The translations under genes were made by a program, and so were the position numbers. A stretch of DNA of 64,000 bases from an uncultured Pelagibacteraceae bacterium (GTDB taxonomy: Bacteria > Pseudomonadota > Alphaproteobacteria > Pelagibacterales > Pelagibacteraceae): contig CACIWX010000002.1 in assembly GCA_902590465.1 (NCBI GenBank), positions 20,489-84,488 on the forward strand. The letters are read 5' to 3'. The notes under the pieces were generated by a model. That model saw only the letters and a list, made by a program, of their open reading frames with translations. It was not told the DNA's origin and ran no database searches. Every line of letters begins with the position of its first letter. Positions within the stretch are counted from its first letter, which is position 1. Shown in pieces: positions 395-11,454 of the stretch.

Positions 395-480
395 TGGTGC
401 CCTCGGCCAGACTCGAACTGGCACTCCCAAAAGGGCAAGGATTTTAAGTCCTTTGTGTCTACCAATTTCACCACGAGGGC
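395..480 (-). tRNA. tRNA-Leu(TAA), encoded CCA
   Basis: Reverse complement GCCCTCGTGGTGAAATTGGTAGACACAAAGGACTTAAAATCCTT...GTTCGAGTCTGGCCGAGGGCACCA: acceptor stem, D-loop GG, anticodon TAA, long variable arm, TTCGA loop. Confidence 0.97.
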
Positions 481-599
481 ACGTCGTTGTTTTTGTTGTT
501 ATTGTTAATATATTAATACACAAGAGTTTTAAATAAGTAAAAAAAATTTATTTTCTGTCTCTATCTCCTAGTTTGCACCTAGTCTTCCCATATTTTATA
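441..599. repeat. Direct repeat copy A: tRNA-Leu 5' half plus upstream arm (att-like)
   Basis: Ungapped match to 5377-5535; 159 nt with 10 mismatches by manual count, first 54 nt identical. Confidence 0.95.
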
Positions 600-608
600 G
601 GATAAGAA

Positions 609-3600
609 TTAAAGAGATTTACTGTCTTTAACTCTGTCTTTTCTAAAAGTACGATTTTCATTAGTTTGATAATCATAAGTGTGTATGAATTTATTATCGA
701 TCGACCTAATTTTAACTTTTCTTTGACTTGCCCAGCCTGAGGCATTCACGTAAGAAATATTATACTCACTACCCTCTTTCCATTTAAACTTAACATCTTT
801 AGATTTGAATTCTTTCTTAGACACATTTTTTTTTCTAGATTTTTTACTAAATCCACCTTTACAGCTAACACAAACTATACCCATTCCTGATCTCAGATTT
901 GGATCTTTAAAATCTTTTATCGGTTTATATTCTTTACATTTATCACAATGTTTTGTTTGTCCTTCTCTAGTTTTTTTTATTGTCTCTTCTATTAAATCAG
1001 CAACATCTTTTTTGTGTTGAGATATATTCAAATTAGATTTTTTCGAAAATGTTTGTTTTAATTGTTTATCGAGATATTTTATTGGGTTTTCTTTAATTAC
1101 AAATTTATTAAGCCTAATAAATATTACACCGTAAGATTCTAATATTTTTTGTCTTTCCTCATGATCAACAGTATAATAATCCTCGTAATTAGTGTCTGTA
1201 ACTAAATCTTTGTTATCAAAGTGTTCCTTCAAGCCGTCATACTCTATTACAACTTTTTTCTCATCATTATTTTCATCTTTGTAAATAACTAAAAAGTCCA
1301 CAACAAATTTTGGATGATGATAGTCTGGATATATTTGTTTAAAATAGTCTCCAATAGGAAATTGACTTTTTAATTCAACTTTGTTTTTATTCTCGAGATA
1401 AAAAGGTGTTTGTTTAAACCATTGTAATACTTCCTTTTCCATTGGAGATTTAGGATCTAAATCTTTATTTTTTGGAAGTTTTTCCTCACTTGCCCATATA
1501 TTATTAATAAATCTTAATGCATTTCCTATTTCATTTTTGAATTCTTCAACTGATTTGCTCATAATAAAATACATTTTTTCTTGTACACGACTTAACCCTA
1601 CATTTAGTCTTTGAGCTTTTTTATCACCATATTCCTCCAAATCTTTATTTGCTAAATCAACTGGGAAAATCCAATTAAGTTTATCTTTGTTTTTAGTTGC
1701 AACCATAGAGTAAAATACGATCTGTCTCTCCTCTCCTTGACAAGTATCAAAGGTCATTATTTTTAACTTTAATTCTTCTTCGAAGTAGTCTTTATCCTTA
1801 TGTTTTTGTATTAAAGATGTAATTAATCTTTGTTGATCGGTAAAAGGAGTAATTATCCCTACTGATACTGACGTTTTATCAGATTTTATTTTCTCTAATT
1901 GTTTGATGATGTGTTCTGCTTCTTTTTTATTTGAATTATTGATTTCATCTTTTATTTCATATTTTAAATTTTCAAAATGAATTACTTCTTTAATTGGTTT
2001 TGTTCTCAACCTAATTGCCTGTAAATCATTATTATAAAAAGTTTTACTGCAGTAAGCGATATGCTCAGGGTAACCTCTAAAATGTTTTTTAAGTCTAGCT
2101 TCATAATTTGAAATTCTTTGAAAGAAATCAAGGATAGAAGTTTTAACATTAAAACTAGCAAGTCTTTCTAACTGGATAGCATCTTTTGAAATATTTTCTC
2201 TAAAAACTTTTCGTAATTTATTTTGATAAGTATTATTAATAATTGATGTAGCCTGGTAGGATTGTAAATTACTAAATTGTTTTTTATCTCCTAAAACTAA
2301 AATCTTTTTTGCTCTAATTATTGCCGGAAAAGCTTGAGCTATACTTACTTGAGAGGCTTCATCAATAATAATTAAATCAAACATTCCCATATCTAGATCT
2401 ATATACTCAGAAAAATCTCTAACACTTGAAATTATGCATGGAAAAGCATTTTTTAATTTTTGAAATTGGTCTTTTGGAAACTTTTGTTTGGCTCTTATAA
2501 TTTTACTAAGACTTCGAGCTGTATTTTTATTGTTATCGTAAAATTGGATAATTCCTCCGTCAATAACATCTGTCATCTTTGTAGTATGTAATGATTGAAG
2601 TTTTTTCATCAAAGTGGCGTAATCAAAATTTTCTGAATGATCAAAAATTCCTGTAAAGAATCCTTCTAAATTATAATATTTTTTAATTAATTCTTTTTTT
2701 TCTTTATCGAACGTTGCAAATTTATTTTCAAAAATAGAGTTTATTTTTTTTATATTTATTCCTAAATCTCTACATAATTTTTTATCGTTATTTAAAACAT
2801 TTATTGAATGTCTGAATTTATTAACTAGTTTAATATCTTGCTGAAGTTCAGAGTAACTCTCATATTTTTTTATTATTTTTACTGTTTTGTCAAAATTAAG
2901 TTTTTTATTACTAGTAAAGTCTTTGAACTGAGATAAATAATCATTGTATGAGGTCAATTTTTCATAATCCACTTTGAGATTAATATCTTTTTTAATTTTT
3001 AACTTTCTTTTAATCTGATCACTTAACTCGATTATTTTTCCAGACTTAAAAACACCTCCAAAAATACCTGCGGTCTCCTGACTATATTCCTCGAGTTTCT
3101 TATATAGGTAAGTAATATTATTGGTTGAAATATTTCCAAAATAATAAAATGTTTTAAAAGAATTTTTATCCTGTGAAGCAAATGTATCAATTAAGGAGAG
3201 TAAATTAAAAAAATCTGAAAGGTTTTCTACAGTTGCATTGCTATAAGAATCTTTTACTTTCTCAACTAATATTTCTAAGTCTGCAATTTCATTAAGATTA
3301 TCTATAAAATTTTCAAAATTAAATTCGTCTTTATTGATAGAATTTTCAGCAATATAATTCTTTATAGTATCAGCATTGATTGCCAAATCTTCTTTACTAC
3401 AAGTTTTTGAAATTTCCTCGAACTCCTCAAATTTTTCCTTATCTATACTTTTATAGTGATCAGATAATATTTGTAATCTATCATTAACAACGTCTGAAAT
3501 TTGTTTAATATTTTCATTAGTTTTTTCTGAGTGTGATCTCTGGGCTCTATGAAAATCTCTAAGATTATCAATTGAAGATTTTGCGAGTATTTTATTGTAA

Positions 3601-5207
3601 GTATTTCCCATCTTTCCTAATCTAAGAATAGGATTTTGTACGTTATGACTCCTTCTAACCTGATTAAGTGTTTGGTCTATTTTATTTTCAACAACATCCA
3701 AAGCTTCACGAGTATCAGACAAAATTAAAATAGACTTATTTTTTAAAATATAATCAAATGCTATTGCAGATATTGTATGAGACTTACCAGTTCCTGGTGG
3801 TCCTTCGACTGTCACATATTTACATTGATCATGTTTTAGCGATCTAATTATTTTTTGTTGTTCCGGATTGAGAGGTATTGGGCTTTCATAATTTAATCTT
3901 TCCGTGATATCTAGTCCCTCCCATTTATCTTCTACCTCTTGATTTATTACTTCAGGCTCTTTCAGTAAAAAATCAGTTATTAATTGCTTAAACATCTCAG
4001 CAATATCACTGTCACCTTGAAGTAATTTTTCTAATATATTTTCATAGTCATTTATTAGTGACTCGTCTGACTTGTCAAAAACACAAAAAGAGCAGTTATT
4101 GGAGAGAACAAAATAAATATTTTTTGATATTTGTTTTTTTGAATTAGAGAGATCAATATTCCCCTCAGTTCTTAATTTTGAAATTAACGAGACGTATATA
4201 TCATTAAATTTTGGTAATAATGTATTGTCCTCACTTACAAATAGTTTTCTTTCCTCATCAAATTTTTCTACTTTCTTATCTTCTTTTAATAAAGTTTGAA
4301 AAGCGAAATCAATTGCACGTTTATTTACAAAGAATTCATTTGAAAAAGAAACTTTAAATAAACTTTCAGTAGAATATTCTTTGACGTTTATTTGCGAGTA
4401 AAAAAGTGGAAACCTTCTTTTTTCAATTTCAATTTCCCCAAAATACAAATATATTTCTTTTTTATCTAAGTTTTTAAAAGAATTTACTATCTCTTGTAAA
4501 TCATAATACAAGTCTTTTACCTCAAAATTTAAAAATAAATCTAGCAATCTAGAACTGATATCTTTTTTATTAAATAATTCCGTAGTCTGCTCTTTAGGTT
4601 TATATTTTTTATCTGCCAATATATTGTTGAATATTAATGGTATTCCTTCAGATAATGGATCTAGCACAAGATCTGTTAATTTTTCTTCTAAGGTGTATAA
4701 AGACTCAATTTCAAAATTACTTTGACTACCGATTAATGGTTCCATTTTTTCAGTAATCGGTTTTATAATGATATCTGTTATATCTTTTTTTATAATTTCG
4801 TTTATTTTATCATATGCTTCGTCAGGTCTATTTCTATGACTAGATGCAAACTCTTTAATAGTTTTAACAGAAAGCAAAACTATTCTCTCTACATCTTTAT
4901 CTTTAATTTGTTTTATTAGCTTTTTAACAAGATCAACTGAGGTATCATTTAATTTTACACTGTAAGAACCTTTTTTTATTGAAATATCATTTTGAAAACC
5001 ATTTTGTTTTGTCAAAAGTTTTCTTATGTATTCATTAAATTTTTCATATTTGGATAAATTAATACCAACTTTAAAATTTTTTTCGTTTGTGTACTTGATT
5101 GATCTCTTGGGAAATCTTTGGGATTTAAATCCATTCTGTAAAAAGTGCATGTAGTATTTACAAAGCTCTTCTACAAAATTATTTCTACCTGCCTTTGTTG
5201 CCATCAT
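609..5207 (-). CDS. SF1 (UPF1/DNA2-like) helicase fused to Vsr/DUF559-like nuclease, Zn finger and C-terminal WYL-like domain; putative anti-phage protein
   Basis: GPPGTGKS (~aa469), IIDEASQ (~aa949), GDKKQ, HFR, TFDTCQGEE, RLNVGLSR; SPMEKEV..QFPIG..VDFLV..VIEYDG..H..R..LESYG..FIRL; CDKC/CVSC; ISYVNASG..SQRKV..ENRTFRKDRV. Confidence 0.85.
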   Translation of the reverse strand: MMATKAGRNNFVEELCKYYMHFLQNGFKSQRFPKRSIKYTNEKNFKVGINLSKYEKFNEYIRKLLTKQNGFQNDISIKKGSYSVKLNDTSVDLVKKLIKQIKDKDVERIVLLSVKTIKEFASSHRNRPDEAYDKINEIIKKDITDIIIKPITEKMEPLIGSQSNFEIESLYTLEEKLTDLVLDPLSEGIPLIFNNILADKKYKPKEQTTELFNKKDISSRLLDLFLNFEVKDLYYDLQEIVNSFKNLDKKEIYLYFGEIEIEKRRFPLFYSQINVKEYSTESLFKVSFSNEFFVNKRAIDFAFQTLLKEDKKVEKFDEERKLFVSEDNTLLPKFNDIYVSLISKLRTEGNIDLSNSKKQISKNIYFVLSNNCSFCVFDKSDESLINDYENILEKLLQGDSDIAEMFKQLITDFLLKEPEVINQEVEDKWEGLDITERLNYESPIPLNPEQQKIIRSLKHDQCKYVTVEGPPGTGKSHTISAIAFDYILKNKSILILSDTREALDVVENKIDQTLNQVRRSHNVQNPILRLGKMGNTYNKILAKSSIDNLRDFHRAQRSHSEKTNENIKQISDVVNDRLQILSDHYKSIDKEKFEEFEEISKTCSKEDLAINADTIKNYIAENSINKDEFNFENFIDNLNEIADLEILVEKVKDSYSNATVENLSDFFNLLSLIDTFASQDKNSFKTFYYFGNISTNNITYLYKKLEEYSQETAGIFGGVFKSGKIIELSDQIKRKLKIKKDINLKVDYEKLTSYNDYLSQFKDFTSNKKLNFDKTVKIIKKYESYSELQQDIKLVNKFRHSINVLNNDKKLCRDLGINIKKINSIFENKFATFDKEKKELIKKYYNLEGFFTGIFDHSENFDYATLMKKLQSLHTTKMTDVIDGGIIQFYDNNKNTARSLSKIIRAKQKFPKDQFQKLKNAFPCIISSVRDFSEYIDLDMGMFDLIIIDEASQVSIAQAFPAIIRAKKILVLGDKKQFSNLQSYQATSIINNTYQNKLRKVFRENISKDAIQLERLASFNVKTSILDFFQRISNYEARLKKHFRGYPEHIAYCSKTFYNNDLQAIRLRTKPIKEVIHFENLKYEIKDEINNSNKKEAEHIIKQLEKIKSDKTSVSVGIITPFTDQQRLITSLIQKHKDKDYFEEELKLKIMTFDTCQGEERQIVFYSMVATKNKDKLNWIFPVDLANKDLEEYGDKKAQRLNVGLSRVQEKMYFIMSKSVEEFKNEIGNALRFINNIWASEEKLPKNKDLDPKSPMEKEVLQWFKQTPFYLENKNKVELKSQFPIGDYFKQIYPDYHHPKFVVDFLVIYKDENNDEKKVVIEYDGLKEHFDNKDLVTDTNYEDYYTVDHEERQKILESYGVIFIRLNKFVIKENPIKYLDKQLKQTFSKKSNLNISQHKKDVADLIEETIKKTREGQTKHCDKCKEYKPIKDFKDPNLRSGMGIVCVSCKGGFSKKSRKKNVSKKEFKSKDVKFKWKEGSEYNISYVNASGWASQRKVKIRSIDNKFIHTYDYQTNENRTFRKDRVKDSKSL

Positions 5208-5220
5208 TTAATCTACCAAA

Positions 5221-5358
5221 TTCTAGGTTCATCTCCTAGTCTGCGCACTAGTTTGCACAAACAAATTTGCCTTGATTTTAAATACTAATTGATGGGATAA
5301 ATAAAAAAGTTAGGATTGATAATGTTTTGAGACTAACTGAGACTAACAGAGACAATAA
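5221..5358. repeat. Arm-like region: three CTAG(T/G) motifs plus 3 x 10-bp GAGACTAAC-type tandem repeat
   Basis: CTAG at 5223, 5236, 5248; gagactaact-gagactaaca-gagacaataa at 5329-5358. Confidence 0.8.
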
Positions 5359-5376
5359 GAAATGTGAATCCCTGGT

Positions 5377-5535
5377 ATTTTAAGTCCTTTGTGTCTACCA
5401 ATTTCACCACGAGGGCACGTCGTTGTTTTTATTGTTATTGTTAATATATTAATACACAAGTGTTTTAAATAAGTAAAAATAATTTATTTTACGTCTCTAT
5501 CTTCTAGTTGTCTTCTAGTCTTCCCATATTTTATA
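5377..5535. repeat. Direct repeat copy B: truncated tRNA-Leu (5' 40 nt, 5377-5416) plus upstream arm
   Basis: Matches 441-599; tRNA similarity stops just after the anticodon loop. Confidence 0.95.
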
Positions 5536-5569
5536 TGACAATAAATGAGTTTTTTTCTGTCCGCGGCAA

Positions 5570-5856
5570 CTGGCAACAGAACGCACCTTGCACTACAATT
5601 AAGAATGATAAATAATCAAGCATGATTGATTTTAAAAAAAATCCTAAATTAGCATTATTCACTTATGGAATATTATTATGTTCTGCTCTGATAGAAATAG
5701 GTGCAGAACTTGGACTCCATGAATTTGATGATTTTGCTTCACATCACGGCTTAGCAATTTTTTCTATCGGAAGTTTAATTGCTAATTGGGAAAAAATTTC
5801 TCAAATATTAATTAAAGGTAAAAAAAAGAAATATTAAGCACCTGGCAACAGAACGC
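5570..5856. repeat. 15-bp perfect direct repeat CTGGCAACAGAACGC flanking a small gene
   Basis: Copies at 5570-5584 and 5842-5856. Confidence 0.85.
5622..5837 (+). CDS. Small membrane protein (2 hydrophobic segments), unknown function
   Basis: 71-aa ORF, two hydrophobic stretches, His-containing loop (LHE..SHHG), basic tail. Confidence 0.65.
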   Translation: MIDFKKNPKLALFTYGILLCSALIEIGAELGLHEFDDFASHHGLAIFSIGSLIANWEKISQILIKGKKKKY

Positions 5857-6016
5857 TACTACTTAATTTAATATTTAAAAATATAATCCTCTTTAATAAA
5901 AGATTAAATATTTTGTAATATAGGCTTAATAATTAGATGTTCTGATTACTTATGTCTAAACTAAAAAAAATATTAAAAAAGATTTATTATTTTATCTTCC
6001 CTAAGGAGCTTAAATA

Positions 6017-6064
6017 ATGTGGCCATACAACGATAAAGAAAATGAGTTTATCTCATTGAATTGA
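6017..6064 (+). CDS. Putative 15-aa micro-peptide MWPYNDKENEFISLN
   Basis: AAGGAG SD at 6003-6008; TAATG overlap with a preceding 21-aa ORF (5952-6017). Confidence 0.35.
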   Translation: MWPYNDKENEFISLN

Positions 6065-6089
6065 ACTGTTTTAGAGAATATTATTTTCA

Positions 6090-6710
6090 TTATTTTATGA
6101 TATTTTCAATAATATAATTTGATTTAGCATCATTCATTCTTATATTTTTAAATGTGTAAAAATATTTTTTTTTTTTTATTTTTTTTATTTTGGAAATAAA
6201 TAAAAATTGAGTATGAAAAACAAGGAAATTAATATGATTTTTATTTAGTTTTTGGTTAATTTTACCATTTTTTCGATGACTATGTAATATTAAACCAAGT
6301 TTAAAATCTTTTGTGATGCCTCTAATCTTGACTAGATTGCTTTCTTTAAAAGAAATAAAATAAACATTCTTCTTAAAACCATTACATGTTTCAAGCAATC
6401 GATTTAAAGTATTTTTCCTAAGCAGAGGCTTAATCTCAACTAACACTTTTGTATTTACAGTTAAAATTTTTAAAAGATCACATAGTTTTGTTATCTTGTA
6501 TTTTTTTAAATTCTTATCAAGAATTGTTCTAGTTTTTTTTCTGATATTGAATAACCTTCTTAAGCTATAATCATGAAAGCAAATGGGTGTATTATTTTGG
6601 GTAAAGTGAATATCAGTCTCAATATTAAACTTTTTTTTTATACACTCTTTAAATGAAGTAATATGATTTTCTCTAAAGTTTTTTTCAATTAATCCTCTGT
6701 GTATAAACAT
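6090..6710 (-). CDS. Glycerophosphodiester phosphodiesterase family protein
   Basis: HRG..EN..F, ETDIH, CFHD..L.R, VEIK, FISF motifs. Confidence 0.8.
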   Translation of the reverse strand: MFIHRGLIEKNFRENHITSFKECIKKKFNIETDIHFTQNNTPICFHDYSLRRLFNIRKKTRTILDKNLKKYKITKLCDLLKILTVNTKVLVEIKPLLRKNTLNRLLETCNGFKKNVYFISFKESNLVKIRGITKDFKLGLILHSHRKNGKINQKLNKNHINFLVFHTQFLFISKIKKIKKKKYFYTFKNIRMNDAKSNYIIENIIK

Positions 6711-7924
6711 TATTTTAATCCCTTGGTTCTATGCAATATGATCCATCCAAAAAAGAGCAGTAAAAGAACTGAGGCAAAACCTATCCTTTGATTTTCAGTT
6801 ATGAAAGTAATGGTTCCTACTAAAAATGGGCCAAAAAAAGACGTTAGCTTTCCAGAAGTAGCAAATAAACCAAAGGCTTTATTCTGATCCTCAATTTTTG
6901 TTAATTTAGTTATCATGACCCTACTAGCTGATTGTATTGGTCCTATAAATAATCCCAAGAAAAATGAAAAAATAAAAAAACTAATTTTTGACTGTGTAAA
7001 AATGATTAAAATGGAGAAGAAAATAAGACATATCAAGGAAAAGGAAATTGTTTTTTTTGAATTATATTTATCATTGAAATATCCACCAAAACTAGCACCT
7101 ATTAAAGCAGCAACATTCATTAAAACAGACATCATTAAAAGTTCATTTATTGATAGTTTAAATACCCCAACAGCAAAAATACCTCCCATGACAAAAATGG
7201 TATTTAAACCATCAGCATAAAGTAGCCGTGCAAACAAAAAACGAGTTGTGTTAGTTAGACCATTATTCCAAAGAATCTTTTTTAAACTATTTGATTTTTT
7301 TTTGTTTGGTTCAACTTTTTTATATTTTGTTTGACTTAATAGTGGATAGGAAAAAATGAGAAACCAAAGGGCTACAAAAATGGCAGTGGATCTAAAATTA
7401 ATTTTTTGATCTAAATCGATTAAATAATTTGATTGAATTAATAAAATAATGGTCAAAATAAGTGTGATAATGCCACCTAAATACCCCAGCGCAAAAGCAA
7501 AACCAGACACCTTTCCCACATGTTGTTTATCCGCTGAATGAATTAATAATGAATTATAGAAAATAGAACTTAGTTCATAAAAATAGTTTGCCAAACAAAC
7601 TATGATTAAGGTAAATAAAATATATTCAGTAGATGGTTTTGCAAACCATAATGCTGCTGTAAAAAATATACATAAATAGGTGCTTGATTTTAAGATAATT
7701 GAGTTTAAATTCTTCTTATCAGCTAAATTTCCTAAAAAGGGTCCGCTTAATGCAATGCATAGTCCTGATACTGAAATGGCCCAACCCCAATATGCCTGGC
7801 CATTAACCATATCTTGAACAATTGACTCCGCAAAATAATTTGAGAAAACAAAAGTTATAATAACTGTTGTAAAGGCAGAATTAGCAAAATCATAAAGAGA
7901 AAATTTATAAGATTTTAAATTCAT
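6710..7924 (-). CDS. MFS transporter (UMF1/ATG22-like)
   Basis: LYDFANSAFTT, FYNSLL, SGFAFALGYLGG, QSASR motifs; about 12 TM segments. Confidence 0.85.
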   Translation of the reverse strand: MNLKSYKFSLYDFANSAFTTVIITFVFSNYFAESIVQDMVNGQAYWGWAISVSGLCIALSGPFLGNLADKKNLNSIILKSSTYLCIFFTAALWFAKPSTEYILFTLIIVCLANYFYELSSIFYNSLLIHSADKQHVGKVSGFAFALGYLGGIITLILTIILLIQSNYLIDLDQKINFRSTAIFVALWFLIFSYPLLSQTKYKKVEPNKKKSNSLKKILWNNGLTNTTRFLFARLLYADGLNTIFVMGGIFAVGVFKLSINELLMMSVLMNVAALIGASFGGYFNDKYNSKKTISFSLICLIFFSILIIFTQSKISFFIFSFFLGLFIGPIQSASRVMITKLTKIEDQNKAFGLFATSGKLTSFFGPFLVGTITFITENQRIGFASVLLLLFFGWIILHRTKGLK

Positions 7925-7938
7925 GCTAATTTAATATC

Positions 7939-7977
7939 TTATAAATCCAGAACCACGATTGCTAAAAGTTTTTTCAT
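7939..7977 (-). pseudogene. Orphan signal-peptide stub MKKLLAIVVLDL*
   Basis: 7949-7979 matches 10200-10230 (start of the 396-aa gene) at 30/31 nt. Confidence 0.7.
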
Positions 7978-7978
7978 T

Positions 7979-8941
7979 TTAAAGTTTATTACAATTGTAC
8001 CCTAAATTTATTAGGTTTAATTTATTACATTGATCTGCAAATCTTATTTCATCTATGTACAAAATTTGAACTGTTGACGCTTCCTCATACTTCCATTTAG
8101 TTTTCACTTTTTTTCCTTTAGCCTTTATTTGATTTGCTCTGTCTTGATAAATACCAAAATTTGTTGACGAGAGTGATGAGTTTCCTGGCATTTTATTTTG
8201 CATATCTACAATTTTTTTGCCGTTAACCCATATGAATAAACTTTTCTTATTTGGTGTATGTACTATTACATCTATCCACTTTCCTAAGTGATTAGAAAAA
8301 TGTTTTAAATCAAAAAAAGGAGGATCGTGATATTTTTCGCTTATTTTTCTACAAATATTTTTTCCCAGAAGTTTTTTGCTAATTTTCACGCACTCATTGT
8401 CGTGAAGAAAACTTCTTAACTGTACATTTACAATTCCTTCAGGTGAAATACCCATTCTATAATGTGCACCTTTGCCTTTTCTATGTATTTGATTGAATAT
8501 AAGTGGCGTATTTGAATGAATATAATTTTTAGGGATTAATACGGAAAATGAAAGCCATTTACTTCCCCAATCCCGATACTTTGTTCCTATAAAAACTCGT
8601 CGTGCTCCCTCATAGCAATTGTTCCAGTTATTTATGCTATCATTTGATTTCTTGTATATCCCACAATCACCTGGATGACTTTCAAATTTAATAGAGATAT
8701 TATCATCTCTTGAAATTTCATCTGTGATTATCAAACAGTGATCAGGTCCTTTACCATTTTGCCAGCATGAATCCCAATGGTTCATTCTTAATTTTTTACC
8801 TTCAAGAACATTATCAGGTAAATTAATTAAACGACTATTACCACTACCTTTGCTTCCAGCTAATTCTTTCCACACTATTGGATCAGCATATGAATTATTT
8901 AAAAAGAGAAAAAATAATAAAAATATAGACAAACTTTTCAT
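7979..8941 (-). CDS. Secreted polysaccharide-lyase-like (ConA/jelly-roll) protein
   Basis: Signal peptide; SIKFE..PGDC, WLSFSVLIP, IFNQIH, GKWIDV, IWVNGK, NFGIY, LYIDEIR. Confidence 0.65.
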   Translation of the reverse strand: MKSLSIFLLFFLFLNNSYADPIVWKELAGSKGSGNSRLINLPDNVLEGKKLRMNHWDSCWQNGKGPDHCLIITDEISRDDNISIKFESHPGDCGIYKKSNDSINNWNNCYEGARRVFIGTKYRDWGSKWLSFSVLIPKNYIHSNTPLIFNQIHRKGKGAHYRMGISPEGIVNVQLRSFLHDNECVKISKKLLGKNICRKISEKYHDPPFFDLKHFSNHLGKWIDVIVHTPNKKSLFIWVNGKKIVDMQNKMPGNSSLSSTNFGIYQDRANQIKAKGKKVKTKWKYEEASTVQILYIDEIRFADQCNKLNLINLGYNCNKL

Positions 8942-8990
8942 CGTTAAAATTTAAATTATCAGTATTAAATATTTATGAAAAGTAAAAATT

Positions 8991-9037
8991 ATCTTCTAGT
9001 TTGCACCTAGTCTTCCCATATTTTATAGGACAATAAG
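8991..9037. repeat. Third copy of CTAGT-pair arm motif
   Basis: atcttctagtttgcacctagtcttcccatattttatagga nearly identical to 563-602. Confidence 0.9.
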
Positions 9038-10228
9038 TTAGTTTTGTTTCCAAACAAGATTTACTAATTCTTGAGGTTTCCAACTAATAGCAAAACCATT
9101 CGTCTGAATTATTTTGTCATTTTTCCAATCAATTAAAGATAGTCTTAAACCGTGTCCTCTCATTTGAACTAAATTTTCTACATTATACCCATTTAACCAA
9201 AAGAACATTGCATATTTAGGAGCAAATTTTTTCTTAGTGGGAACGGCATTCTTAAAAGCCTCTTGTAACTTTTTTGCCTCACAAGAGTTTTTATCCTTCA
9301 TTAATTCAATAACGTATATTCCAAACCTTAGCCAATCTTCTCTAGTAAGCATGATAGATGACGATGATATTGGAACTCCCTTTTTGTCTAATAATATTTT
9401 ACCCTTTGACTCAAAACCTGCAGTTTCTGAAATATTTTTTTGAAACCATTTAGCAAACTTCTTTTTTCCTCCTAATACATTGATCATATCTAATGTTATT
9501 AAATCAGTATTAGGATTTGAGTATTTAAATTCTTTTGGTCCTTCTGTTTCTAATTTTTTAGGGTGCTTATTAAGAATAGTTGTTAAGTCAGATTTCTTTC
9601 TGTGCGTTTCCTTTAAAATATTATAATTTATTACAAATTGATCTCTAGCCAACATATTTAAGGAGTCTTTTAATTTTACATGGCCATAAAATGAGTCTTT
9701 AATTTCTGGAGAGTAATCACCATGAGTTTTATCTAAATCTAAAATATTTTGACAAGCCATTTTTAAAGCAGCAACACCAACTATTGATTTGCTCCTAGAC
9801 TCACCATTTATAGGTTTGTTATTAAAAATATAATCTCTTTTCCAATCGTGAATTAATTCTCCTTTATCAAATACCATCAAACTAGAGATATCTCTGTAAT
9901 ATACATAATCATAAATTTCTTTTGGAAGAGGTTTTATATTTTTTTTAATTGGTCTGATTGTTTTTTTTGCTGGTTGTATTACAATTCTTTTTAACCCTCC
10001 ATTATTTTTGTGATCTCTATTTTTCAAACTTGCTTTACGGTAATAGCCATGAGCCCAATAATCGTGTCTTTCTGTGCAAAACTTGCAATCATTAGGAGGG
10101 TATTCTGCTTTTGGAAAATCCTTCTTCCATCTTTCTAACGAAGGAGACCATTTATTTTTTGGTGGTGTTGCAATTAAGGTGGTGCTCCACAACAAACCTA
10201 GAACCACGATCGCTAAAAGTTTTTTCAT
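9038..10228 (-). CDS. Secreted serine hydrolase, beta-lactamase/AmpC-like fold
   Basis: Signal peptide; SRSK (SxxK), FKYSN (YxN), LTREDWLRFG, RGHG. Confidence 0.75.
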   Translation of the reverse strand: MKKLLAIVVLGLLWSTTLIATPPKNKWSPSLERWKKDFPKAEYPPNDCKFCTERHDYWAHGYYRKASLKNRDHKNNGGLKRIVIQPAKKTIRPIKKNIKPLPKEIYDYVYYRDISSLMVFDKGELIHDWKRDYIFNNKPINGESRSKSIVGVAALKMACQNILDLDKTHGDYSPEIKDSFYGHVKLKDSLNMLARDQFVINYNILKETHRKKSDLTTILNKHPKKLETEGPKEFKYSNPNTDLITLDMINVLGGKKKFAKWFQKNISETAGFESKGKILLDKKGVPISSSSIMLTREDWLRFGIYVIELMKDKNSCEAKKLQEAFKNAVPTKKKFAPKYAMFFWLNGYNVENLVQMRGHGLRLSLIDWKNDKIIQTNGFAISWKPQELVNLVWKQN

Positions 10229-10543
10229 TTAATTTTTAATATATGTATCTGGATAGTTAGCAAGATGCTCATCTGAAATTGGAGTCATTACAGCAGTTTC
10301 TAAAACAGCTCCAGCTTCCTTTCTTTTCTCAGCAAGTTCCTTATCATCCTTAAAAGCTTGGAGTGCTTCCATGTTTGGAAATTGCATTACTGTATGAAGT
10401 TTTGTCGGGTCATCTTTTTGTGTGCCTGCAAAAACAAATTTTATTCCATGTTCTTTTAATTTTCCATCCTGCGCATAGACCATCTCTTTCCATGTTTTAA
10501 ATCCTTTAGTAATTGTAATTTCACCTTTGACTAGTATTCCCAT
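10229..10543 (-). CDS. Small alpha/beta-barrel protein, DUF3764-like
   Basis: F.TW....D..LKEHGIK..F.G...DDP..L....QFP..EA...F....LAEKRKEAGA pattern; AAGGAG SD. Confidence 0.5.
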   Translation of the reverse strand: MGILVKGEITITKGFKTWKEMVYAQDGKLKEHGIKFVFAGTQKDDPTKLHTVMQFPNMEALQAFKDDKELAEKRKEAGAVLETAVMTPISDEHLANYPDTYIKN

Positions 10544-10607
10544 ATCAAACTCCTTATTTATATTTTAAAAGTTTTCAATAAATAATCTTACCAAATTTTC
10601 CCTTTCT

Positions 10608-10660
10608 GTCTTCTAGTTATCTTCTAGTCTACACAAATTATTTAGCCTTGATTTCTAATG
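10608..10660. repeat. CTAGT-pair arm motif, distal type
   Basis: CTAGT at 10613 and 10624, followed by cacaaa..gccttgattt as at 5248-5278. Confidence 0.75.
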
Positions 10661-11356
10661 TTAATTGAGGATTTTTTTAAATTTATTTTTTAATTCATCT
10701 TTAATTTTATCTTTAATCACATCTTGGTCAAATGTTTCAGTGCTTAATTTTCCTTTTAGTTCGTTGAGAGCTTTATCAATAGTTTTTTTTGCAATTGATT
10801 TGTAATTTTTGCTCTTTTTTGTATTGCCAAGATTTTCAAATTTCATATCACTTAACTTCACTGTTTGGTTGAGATTAAGTTTAGTGGAAGAGGCCGAAAT
10901 ATTAATGTCTTTAATATCTAATTGGTTTACTAGAAACTTTTTATCATTTGTTTTTCTGCTTGGACTGTTTTTGGTTTCAAGGGTCTTTTTTAACGAATTT
11001 AAATTACTTTTAGTTATATTGGTTATATCAAAGTAATAGTTTAAACTAATCCCATCGAATATAATATTATCAATTACTAAAACATCATCGTTTAATGATA
11101 AAGGATCTACCTTGACAAAAGCTTGGTCGACTACCAAAAGTTTACCTGGAAAATCTTTATTATTAATCTCAATCTTTTTTAAATTAATTTCTCCACTTAA
11201 ATAACTTATATCAAAATCGGCAATTTTGACTGACCTATTGATATTTTTAGATAAAATACCCTCTAGGTTTTTTTTAATTATTATATCACTAAAAAAAACA
11301 ATAAAGATTATGGATATAAAAGTTAAAGAAACTATAATAATTAAAAATTTTTTCAT
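10661..11356 (-). CDS. AsmA-like membrane-anchored protein
   Basis: Likely start MKKFLIII at 11356; N-terminal TM followed by beta-rich AsmA-type pattern. Confidence 0.55.
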   Translation of the reverse strand: MKKFLIIIVSLTFISIIFIVFFSDIIIKKNLEGILSKNINRSVKIADFDISYLSGEINLKKIEINNKDFPGKLLVVDQAFVKVDPLSLNDDVLVIDNIIFDGISLNYYFDITNITKSNLNSLKKTLETKNSPSRKTNDKKFLVNQLDIKDINISASSTKLNLNQTVKLSDMKFENLGNTKKSKNYKSIAKKTIDKALNELKGKLSTETFDQDVIKDKIKDELKNKFKKILN

Positions 11357-11454
11357 CAATTCTTTTATAATTATATCTCTTGGTTTAGCTATAAGTCTAC
11401 ACAAAATAATTTAAATCTGTTAAAAGATTTTTAAAAAATTACATAAAATACTTC

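What the first reader, a model, noticed from the sequence alone, without database searches (positions are those of the whole stretch)
609..5207. Stand-alone helicase-nuclease-Zn finger-WYL fusion: candidate single-gene anti-phage system
Seen: a 1,532-aa protein with an unassigned ~430-aa N-terminus and an SF1 UPF1/DNA2-type helicase whose Walker A (~aa469) and Walker B (~aa949) are split by a long helical insert. After these come a Vsr/DUF559-like endonuclease (~aa1254-1380), a CxxC...CxxC finger (~aa1421-1450), a basic linker and a terminal WYL-like domain (ISY..ASG..SQRKV...ENRTFRKDRV). Known: helicase+Vsr single-gene systems such as Hhe (DUF4011-helicase-Vsr) are anti-phage, and WYL domains sense nucleic acid and usually regulate defence loci as separate HTH-WYL proteins. 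Inference: sensor and effector are fused, so WYL may gate the helicase/nuclease in cis. I do not recognise this architecture from a named system. It is the only cargo of a tRNA-integrated element.
Basis: partly seen in the sequence, partly recalled or inferred. Interest (0 to 1): 0.85.

Follow-up and report, generated by a model that had tools for sequence, protein, structure and literature searches.

The report
Helicase-nuclease with swappable WYL tail
This rare gene, one cassette in a tRNA-linked island of a marine bacterium, encodes a giant helicase-nuclease that likely defends against phages; its WYL tail is real but is an exchangeable add-on, which relatives replace, lack, or would make only by frameshifting.

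Summary
The ORF and its domain order are confirmed: SF1 helicase with a ~380-aa insert, Vsr/DUF559-like nuclease fold, C4 finger and WYL fold. No curated defence model is met. The N-terminus is probably a remote DUF4011, making this a divergent Hhe-like family.

WYL is not the family's core. Relatives carry a topoisomerase zinc ribbon or nothing instead. In 9 of 53 loci the whole finger-plus-tail lies in the -1 frame behind a 9-10-base run; here it is in frame. A helicase-WYL fusion is already described (TePif1, accessory ssDNA binding), so in-cis gating is unproven.

The gene is the only cargo of its cassette, but that cassette is the tRNA-proximal unit of an ~11-kb additive tRNA-Leu island whose cargo elsewhere is mostly metabolic. 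Defence co-localisation was not significant, and anti-phage function is inferred, not shown.

This scan had already noted look-alike helicase-nucleases and the frameshift on other DNA. Verdict: new variant of a known kind.

The parts
395..480 (-). intact tRNA-Leu(TAA), integration target
   Evidence: ARAGORN
441..608 (.). direct repeat copy 1: 5' half of tRNA-Leu plus ~128 nt upstream; tRNA-side boundary of the cassette
   Evidence: 168 nt, 92% identical to 5377-5544
609..5207 (-). 1532-aa helicase-nuclease-Zn finger-WYL gene
3918..5207 (-). N-terminal region aa1-430, mixed alpha/beta with a helical bundle; no clear PDB match
   Evidence: AF2 mean pLDDT 83.4; best Z 7.8 to helical stalks; no Foldseek hit at E<=0.001
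3978..4508 (-). probable remote DUF4011-like segment, aa~234-410
   Evidence: hhalign P=0.008, score 25.1 versus max 23.9 in 30 block shuffles; Atlas top hits DUF4011 at 0.87 for homologue P0078, a lead only; no Pfam PF13195 hit
1560..3872 (-). UPF1/DNA2-like SF1 helicase aa446-1216; Walker A at 3780-3803, Walker B at 2349-2372
   Evidence: Pfam AAA_11/AAA_12; Walker A, Walker B and motif III in 73 of 73 aligned homologues, motif VI in 70 of 73
2448..3590 (-). ~380-aa poorly conserved insert between Walker A and B; helical by inference, not modelled
   Evidence: motif spacing; low conservation in alignments A1 and A2
1038..1454 (-). Vsr/DUF559/MTES_1575-like nuclease aa~1252-1390 (D1304, E1322, D1324, H1329)
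   Evidence: structure matches; EYDG...H in 71 of 73 homologues; sub-threshold MTES_1575 hits in 10 of 13 homologues
1032..1049 (-). nuclease/tail junction with an A6 run, in frame here; the same site holds an A9-10 or T9 run with a -1 tail in relatives
861..947 (-). C4 zinc finger (C1421, C1424, C1446, C1449)
   Evidence: invariant in alignment A1; pattern found in 67 of 73 homologues; fold not separately tested
612..812 (-). WYL domain aa~1466-1532 without HTH or WCX; Y1486, R1496, F1521, R1525 invariant in 37 clade members
5208..5376 (.). cassette-end module: CTAG repeats plus triple GAGAC repeat (5329-5353) 24 nt from the core; predicted integrase arm sites
   Evidence: shared by cassettes with unrelated cargo; motif in 49 of 401 family genomes; 23-24 nt from the tRNA-Leu core in 27 of 30 fetched loci
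5377..5544 (.). direct repeat copy 2 (displaced tRNA 5' half); its first 41 bp are identical to a stretch between the integrase and RNA polymerase genes of pelagiphage HTVC105P
5622..8941 (.). second cassette: 71-aa ORF, GDPD, MFS transporter, polysaccharide lyase-like; not part of the system
   Evidence: Pfam; sits directly at the tRNA in G072 and G184 at 95-100% aa identity
8990..9036 (.). third, partial repeat copy marking a cassette boundary
9038..10543 (-). third cassette: beta-lactamase-fold-like ORF (sub-threshold Pfam hit) and DUF3764; not part of the system
   Evidence: sits directly at the tRNA in G286 at 99%

Best explanation
[quoted passage not shown] Inferred steps: the WYL and C4 finger bind ssDNA exposed at phage replication or injection intermediates; this loads or couples the UPF1/DNA2-like SF1 motor, which translocates with ATP; the Vsr-like domain then cuts. 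Shown by sequence and models: conserved catalytic motifs, the two folds, an exchangeable tail (WYL, topoisomerase Zn ribbon or none), a -1-frame tail behind a slippery run in several lineages, and an in-frame tail in this clade. The gene rides an integrase-less cassette that enters the 5' half of tRNA-Leu(TAA), likely using an integrase supplied in trans.
For: Catalytic motifs are kept in 67-73 of 73 homologues. Folds. The layout parallels Hhe: DUF4011-like segment, split SF1 helicase, Vsr nuclease, colinear in hhalign (98.4% when the helicase start is included, which the helicase largely drives). Hhe needs its Vsr active-site residue E1731 for (weak) anti-T7 activity (10.1101/2022.06.16.496414, passages). 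The distribution is patchy across many phyla and rare in the family (2 of 400). Integrases, recombinases or transposases are among the nearest genes in 6 of 39 loci, and putative nucleases or DUF2779/DUF2130 recur. One distant locus adjoins a CBASS-like cyclase and E2, another AbiD. Tail exchange needs at least 6 changes on the quick tree. WYL deletion in TePif1 lowers ssDNA affinity and uncouples ATPase from unwinding (abstract).
Against: No functional data exist here. PADLOC-recognised defence genes are 8 of 140 near neighbours versus 3 of 60 farther genes and 0 of 59 window genes; Fisher p=1.0 and 0.11. Those counts drop 4, 1 and 2 generic, partial or own-tail hits respectively. Cargo at this tRNA site in relatives is mostly sugar transport, glycosyltransferases and pilins. 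The DUF4011 link is weak (Pfam not met; hhalign probability 4.9% for the segment alone). Substrate (DNA or RNA) is untested, and UPF1-like relatives such as CnuH are predicted to target RNA (PMC11090510, passages). No integrase was found near the cassette ends or in the 66%-complete own genome.
Confidence: 0.55

Rival explanations
1. One reading: the WYL is a true sensor that keeps the helicase-nuclease off until it binds ssDNA or another nucleic-acid signal; slippage lineages would dose the sensor-bearing isoform.
For: The WYL fold matches ligand-sensing regulators. Y1486, R1496, F1521 and R1525 are invariant in 37 clade members. WYL tails recur in separate lineages, several in the -1 frame. 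DriD is activated by ssDNA binding (PMC10853764, passages).
Against: No WCX or HTH domain, through which DriD dimerises and acts. Among 54 further full-length 50%-identity representatives none has an in-frame WYL tail: 25 Zn-only, 14 topoisomerase ribbon, 15 stopping after the nuclease. A flexible basic linker separates WYL from the nuclease in the model (pTM 0.52).
Confidence: 0.17
2. An accessory DNA repair or fork-processing enzyme (DNA2-like helicase-nuclease), or a plasmid/mobile-element restriction factor, with no anti-phage role.
For: The DNA2-like pairing of motor and nuclease. WYL proteins respond to DNA damage. The island's cargo is mostly non-defence and defence enrichment is not significant.
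Against: Rarity (2 of 400), scattered phyla and mobile neighbours fit defence turnover better than housekeeping; the closest layout, Hhe, is anti-phage.
Confidence: 0.18
3. An RNA-targeting abortive system like CoCoNuT CnuH or the anti-phage helicase ProA: the UPF1-like motor tracks RNA and the nuclease degrades transcripts.
For: UPF1-like clade with a helical insert after Walker A and a directly fused Vsr-like nuclease, as in type III-B CnuH. The best NCBIfam score is ProA, 113 bits. RAP-domain chains score as well as Vsr-like DNases (Z 8.9-9.1).
Against: No McrBC partner among 140 neighbours or in the own genome (66% complete). ProA score is far below its cut-off of 1500. The exchangeable tails (WYL, topoisomerase ribbon) are DNA-binding types.
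Confidence: 0.1

Closest known systems
Hhe (DUF4011-helicase-Vsr single-gene anti-phage system; NCBIfam NF042953, PADLOC PDLC02194)
   Same: Single gene; SF1 helicase split by an insert; Vsr-like nuclease; probable remote DUF4011-like segment colinear with the helicase start.
   Different: Fails the models (75 bits versus cut-off 2000; partial PADLOC hit); no Pfam DUF4011; ends in a C4 finger plus an exchangeable WYL or topoisomerase-ribbon tail, frameshift-dependent in some lineages.
CnuH of type III-B CoCoNuT (PMC11090510, passages read)
   Same: UPF1-like SF1 helicase with a large helical insertion after Walker A, fused directly to a Vsr-like nuclease.
   Different: No McrB/McrC or CnuA partners found; different N-terminus; Zn finger and WYL tail.
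Thermotoga elfii Pif1 helicase with C-terminal WYL (10.1101/163188, abstract read)
   Same: SF1 helicase with a terminal WYL domain and no HTH.
   Different: Pif1 family; no nuclease described in the abstract; in vivo role not seen by me.
HTH-WYL-WCX regulators BrxR, CapW, PafBC, DriD
   Same: WYL barrel fold, Z 7.5-8.7, with the RxFRxDR motif.
   Different: No HTH or WCX; fused to an enzyme rather than regulating transcription.
Additive flexible genomic islands at tRNA genes (PMC4898812, passages) and the HTVC105P attachment site (10.1101/410191, passages)
   Same: Cassettes marked by partial tRNA repeats; the same 41-bp tRNA-Leu(TAA) 5' core.
   Different: These cassettes carry conserved triple-GAGAC and CTAG end modules not seen beside the phage core, and no integrase was found near them.

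Membership tests
Hhe | Scores above the curated full-length model | tested here: not met
   NF042953 75.2 bits versus cut-off 2000; PADLOC Hhe 50 bits over a helicase stretch only
Hhe | N-terminal DUF4011 | tested here: inconclusive
   No PF13195 hit; remote profile match P=0.008; Atlas 0.87 lead for a homologue
Hhe | SF1 helicase followed by a Vsr-like nuclease in one ORF | tested here: met
Hhe | Phage protection dependent on the nuclease | not testable with these tools
   needs a plaque assay
CoCoNuT type III-B (CnuH) | Encoded with McrB/McrC (CnuB/CnuC) homologues | tested here: not met
   The cassette holds one gene; no McrBC family among 140 neighbours of 39 homologue loci; none in the own genome, which is 66% complete
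CoCoNuT type III-B (CnuH) | UPF1-like helicase with post-Walker A insert fused to Vsr | tested here: met
   coiled-coil nature of the insert not modelled
Mokosh / ProA / PDC-S37 helicase systems | Full-length model match | tested here: not met
   Matches cover helicase stretches only; ProA 113 bits versus cut-off 1500
WYL domain | WYL/Sm-like barrel with RxFRxDR | tested here: met
   an HMM of the clade's tail hits the three Pfam-WYL-positive tails at E 7e-9 to 3e-6 and none of the 8 topoisomerase-ribbon tails tested
WYL transcriptional regulators | HTH plus WCX dimerisation domain | tested here: not met
   The protein ends 7 residues after RTFRKDR; no HTH hit
WYL domain | Binds ssDNA and changes the activity of the attached domain | not testable with these tools
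   needs biochemistry

The most novel reading that the evidence does not exclude
An unnamed anti-phage helicase-nuclease family whose nucleic-acid-sensing tail is a swappable, slippage-dosed module: some lineages make sensor-less and sensor-bearing isoforms from one gene, while this marine clade has locked an ssDNA-sensing WYL gate in frame. It spreads on integrase-less, integron-like cassettes that use a pelagiphage attachment core in tRNA-Leu.
Probability: 0.2. Interest if true: 0.78.

Novelty: new variant of a known kind. Interest (0 to 1): 0.5.

Why it matters
If protective, it is a compact candidate defence gene in a streamlined marine bacterium (SAR11, inferred), near-identical in metagenomes of several studies. 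The family offers a natural experiment: one catalytic core with WYL, topoisomerase-ribbon, no tail, or a frameshift-dosed tail. That makes it directly testable what a WYL domain does when fused to an effector, and whether recoding tunes a defence enzyme. The cassette vehicle may also help explain how these small genomes exchange accessory genes without an element-borne integrase.

Tried and rejected
Fold searches of the N-terminal model gave nothing clear; this is not evidence of a new fold. A sequence search of the tail against the PDB found 0 hits. A search for much longer fused forms (2997-5000 aa) found none, which is weak evidence. The plasmid DNA search gave one 126-nt match.

Downstream RNA stimulators of frameshifting: none of the 9 shifted loci has |z| above 1.5, so transcriptional slippage and ribosomal shifting cannot be told apart. 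The AU test of whether frameshifted genes form one clade did not finish, and the tree is the quick one.

Sequencing error as the cause of the split tails was rejected: the direction is -1 in 9 of 9; all 6 members of the P0077 cluster are 1394 aa and the 6 full-length members listed (15 of 37 listed) of the P0076 cluster are 1398 aa; and the L006/L092 tail has pN/pS 0.19 in the -1 frame. The other two pairs were weaker, 0.38 and 0.78.

Slippage in the window's own copy is not supported: A6 only, no in-phase heptamer, and no indel listed there in four runs' contigs. One RNA run has three short pieces in the gene, which does not show transcription; no excised circle or clean empty-site joint was shown among the listed joints. 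A sigma-70 scan of 480-700 found nothing above chance; the region upstream of the gene was not scanned. No Atlas result was obtained for the window protein itself. No complex prediction was run.
Full report
OBSERVATION. The ORF 609-5207 (-) encodes 1532 aa. Pfam confirms the split SF1 helicase (AAA_11, AAA_12). PADLOC 2.0 and NCBIfam give only partial helicase matches (Mokosh, PDC-S37, Hhe, ProA, PLuB); the NCBIfam scores are far below their cut-offs. An AlphaFold2 model of aa1236-1532 matches Vsr/DUF559-like nucleases (I-Bth0305I Z 9.1, NGO0050 8.0, Bax1 8.3, Vsr 6.9; RAP-domain chains score equally) and WYL domains (PafBC Z 8.7, CapW and BrxR 8.5). These Z values are middling, but Foldseek's 10 hits at E<=0.001 are all WYL proteins, and an HMM of the clade's tails recognises the three Pfam-WYL-positive tails tested and none of 8 ribbon tails. 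The host is a SAR11-type marine bacterium by inference: ~27% GC, homologues named Pelagibacterales and Pelagibacter, a pelagiphage att core and marine metagenome holders.

THE FAMILY. A capped homologue search (only the 7991 best candidates scored) gave 1936 hits; the best 120 are mostly full-length at 36-99% identity. The N-terminus alone finds 364 representatives at 50% clustering. The N-terminal model (pLDDT 83) has no clear PDB match. Profile comparison with 13 DUF4011 proteins aligns aa~234-410 colinearly: P=0.043 versus 0.62 for a reversed control, and P=0.008 with a score above all 30 block shuffles. The Atlas independently ranks DUF4011 clusters first for homologue P0078 at 0.87, below its 0.9 reliability mark. 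I therefore call the family Hhe-like, not Hhe.

THE TAIL IS MODULAR. By motif, the 121 proteins (query included) end in WYL (58), a topoisomerase Zn ribbon (39) or neither (24; the motif misses some divergent WYL tails and includes two fragments). That set is rich in close relatives. Among 54 further full-length representatives none has an in-frame WYL (25 Zn-only, 14 ribbon, 15 short). On a quick IQ-TREE of 74 cores WYL presence needs at least 6 changes, with 6 rows left unlabelled. Of 60 loci examined, 53 have a readable nuclease end: 44 in frame, 9 with the finger and tail in the -1 frame, and 0 in the +1 frame. Eight of the 9 have A9-10 and the ninth T9 plus A7; all have an in-phase slippery heptamer and a zero-frame stop 1-11 codons later. 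Runs of 9 or more A occur in 10 of 2747 gene-body windows but at 3 of 44 in-frame junctions. Fourteen of the 15 short representatives end just after a KK run. The shifted or short state needs at least 5 changes on the tree, so the 9 are not independent. Runs of 9 A or T are established transcription-slippage sites (PMC5009743, passages). The window's gene has A6, no heptamer and is in frame, and all listed full-length members of its two nearest clusters are 1531-1532 aa. I saw the frameshift, before consulting earlier scan notes; note e1-2033553 reports the same on other DNA.

THE ELEMENT. A 168-bp repeat (tRNA 5' half plus upstream) brackets the gene, and a third partial copy lies at 8990-9036. 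In 20 relatives' tRNA-Leu regions, 6 have the tRNA directly beside the glycosyltransferase gene at window 11455 (empty site). Most others hold different cargo, and one was fetched on the uninformative side. The window's second and third cassettes occur tRNA-proximal in G072/G184 and G286. So the island spans about 441-11450 and this gene is its tRNA-proximal, probably newest, cassette. In G285 (another genus) a 59% homologue is a cassette of the same island; in G280 it follows tRNA-Leu(GAG). This fits additive flexible islands (PMC4898812, passages). The 41-bp core is identical to HTVC105P's, a phage reported to integrate at tRNA-Leu(TAA) with a core overlapping the 5' end (10.1101/410191, passages). 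Cassette ends share a triple-GAGAC/CTAG module. No HTVC105P-like integrase lies within the 34 loci tested, and there is no Pfam integrase in the 66%-complete own genome. Mobilisation in trans is inferred. Near-identical contigs cover the gene in three runs of three studies; 17 DNA runs hold at least half its words, one a possible source.

IS IT DEFENCE? Indirect evidence only. For: rarity, scattered phyla, mobile neighbours, Hhe-like layout and a conserved nuclease site. Against: cargo at this site is mostly metabolic or cell-surface, and PADLOC hits among near neighbours (12 of 140 raw; 8 after dropping 3 generic hits and 1 own tail; about 9 of the 140 are pieces of the gene itself) are not enriched over farther genes (4 of 60 raw, 3 kept) or significantly over window genes (2 of 59 raw, 0 kept).

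MECHANISM. Most likely (0.55): tail and finger bind ssDNA, load or couple the SF1 motor, and the Vsr-like domain cuts phage DNA. The TePif1 precedent (abstract) and interchange with a topoisomerase ribbon favour an accessory binding role. Gating in cis (0.17) remains open, but the WCX and HTH parts used by regulators such as DriD (PMC10853764, passages) are absent. Repair or anti-plasmid roles (0.18) and RNA targeting as predicted for CnuH (PMC11090510, passages; 0.10) are the other rivals.

PRINT. Searches of the open library returned no paper describing this architecture, its frameshift or this cassette end. Most subscription papers are not held. The primary Hhe paper was not read: Hhe's DUF4011-helicase-Vsr layout comes from the NCBIfam name. 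One supplement of the frameshift survey PMC3711429 could not be searched; the other two had 0 hits. Current DefenseFinder models were unavailable, so the family may already be listed among recent predicted systems.

VERDICT. Observation confirmed; interpretation partly supported; new variant of a known kind; interest 0.5.

Noticed in passing
window 5208-5376; loci L144-L173; L140-L143: Conserved cassette-end module (CTAG repeats plus triple GAGAC 23-24 nt from the tRNA-Leu core) shared by cassettes with unrelated cargo; 49 of 401 family genomes carry the motif, with no match for the backward control pattern; also on 3 IMG/VR contigs. No integrase nearby. Looks like an integron-style cassette system mobilised in trans.
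   Followed up: partly
L006, L016, L020, L024, L028, L029, L031, L037, L092 nuclease/tail junction: Tail in the -1 frame behind A9-10 or T9; L008, L047 and L087 have the opposite arrangement (A9 in frame), where slippage would give the short form.
   Followed up: yes
window 5417-5544 relative to the gene start at 5207: The displaced tRNA upstream region points into the helicase gene, and most cassette genes in several relatives (L051, L098, L108) run co-directionally with the tRNA; the tRNA promoter may drive cassette expression. Not tested.
   Followed up: no
L015, L016, L024, L031 (DUF2779); L016, L037, L042, L047, L089 (DUF2130); L023, L026 (DUF4236): Recurrent optional neighbours of the family outside this window.
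   Followed up: no
L044:2964-4854 and 7216-9218: A homologue in Gemmatimonas lies beside a CBASS-like cyclase, E2, CapP-like peptidase and SbcB-like exonuclease.
   Followed up: no
L108:11424-14510: A cassette of five prepilin-type (N-methylation motif) genes at the same tRNA-Leu site in G190.
   Followed up: no
L051:13144-14466: In G285 the homologue shares its cassette with a convergent DUF4379 treble-clef zinc-finger repeat protein.
   Followed up: no
L020, L024, L028 -1 tails: Divergent tails with several Zn ribbons and a WYL-like end lacking the usual RTFR motif.
   Followed up: no
window 5566-5584 and 5838-5856: A 19-bp direct repeat (95%) flanks the 71-aa ORF at 5622-5837.
   Followed up: no
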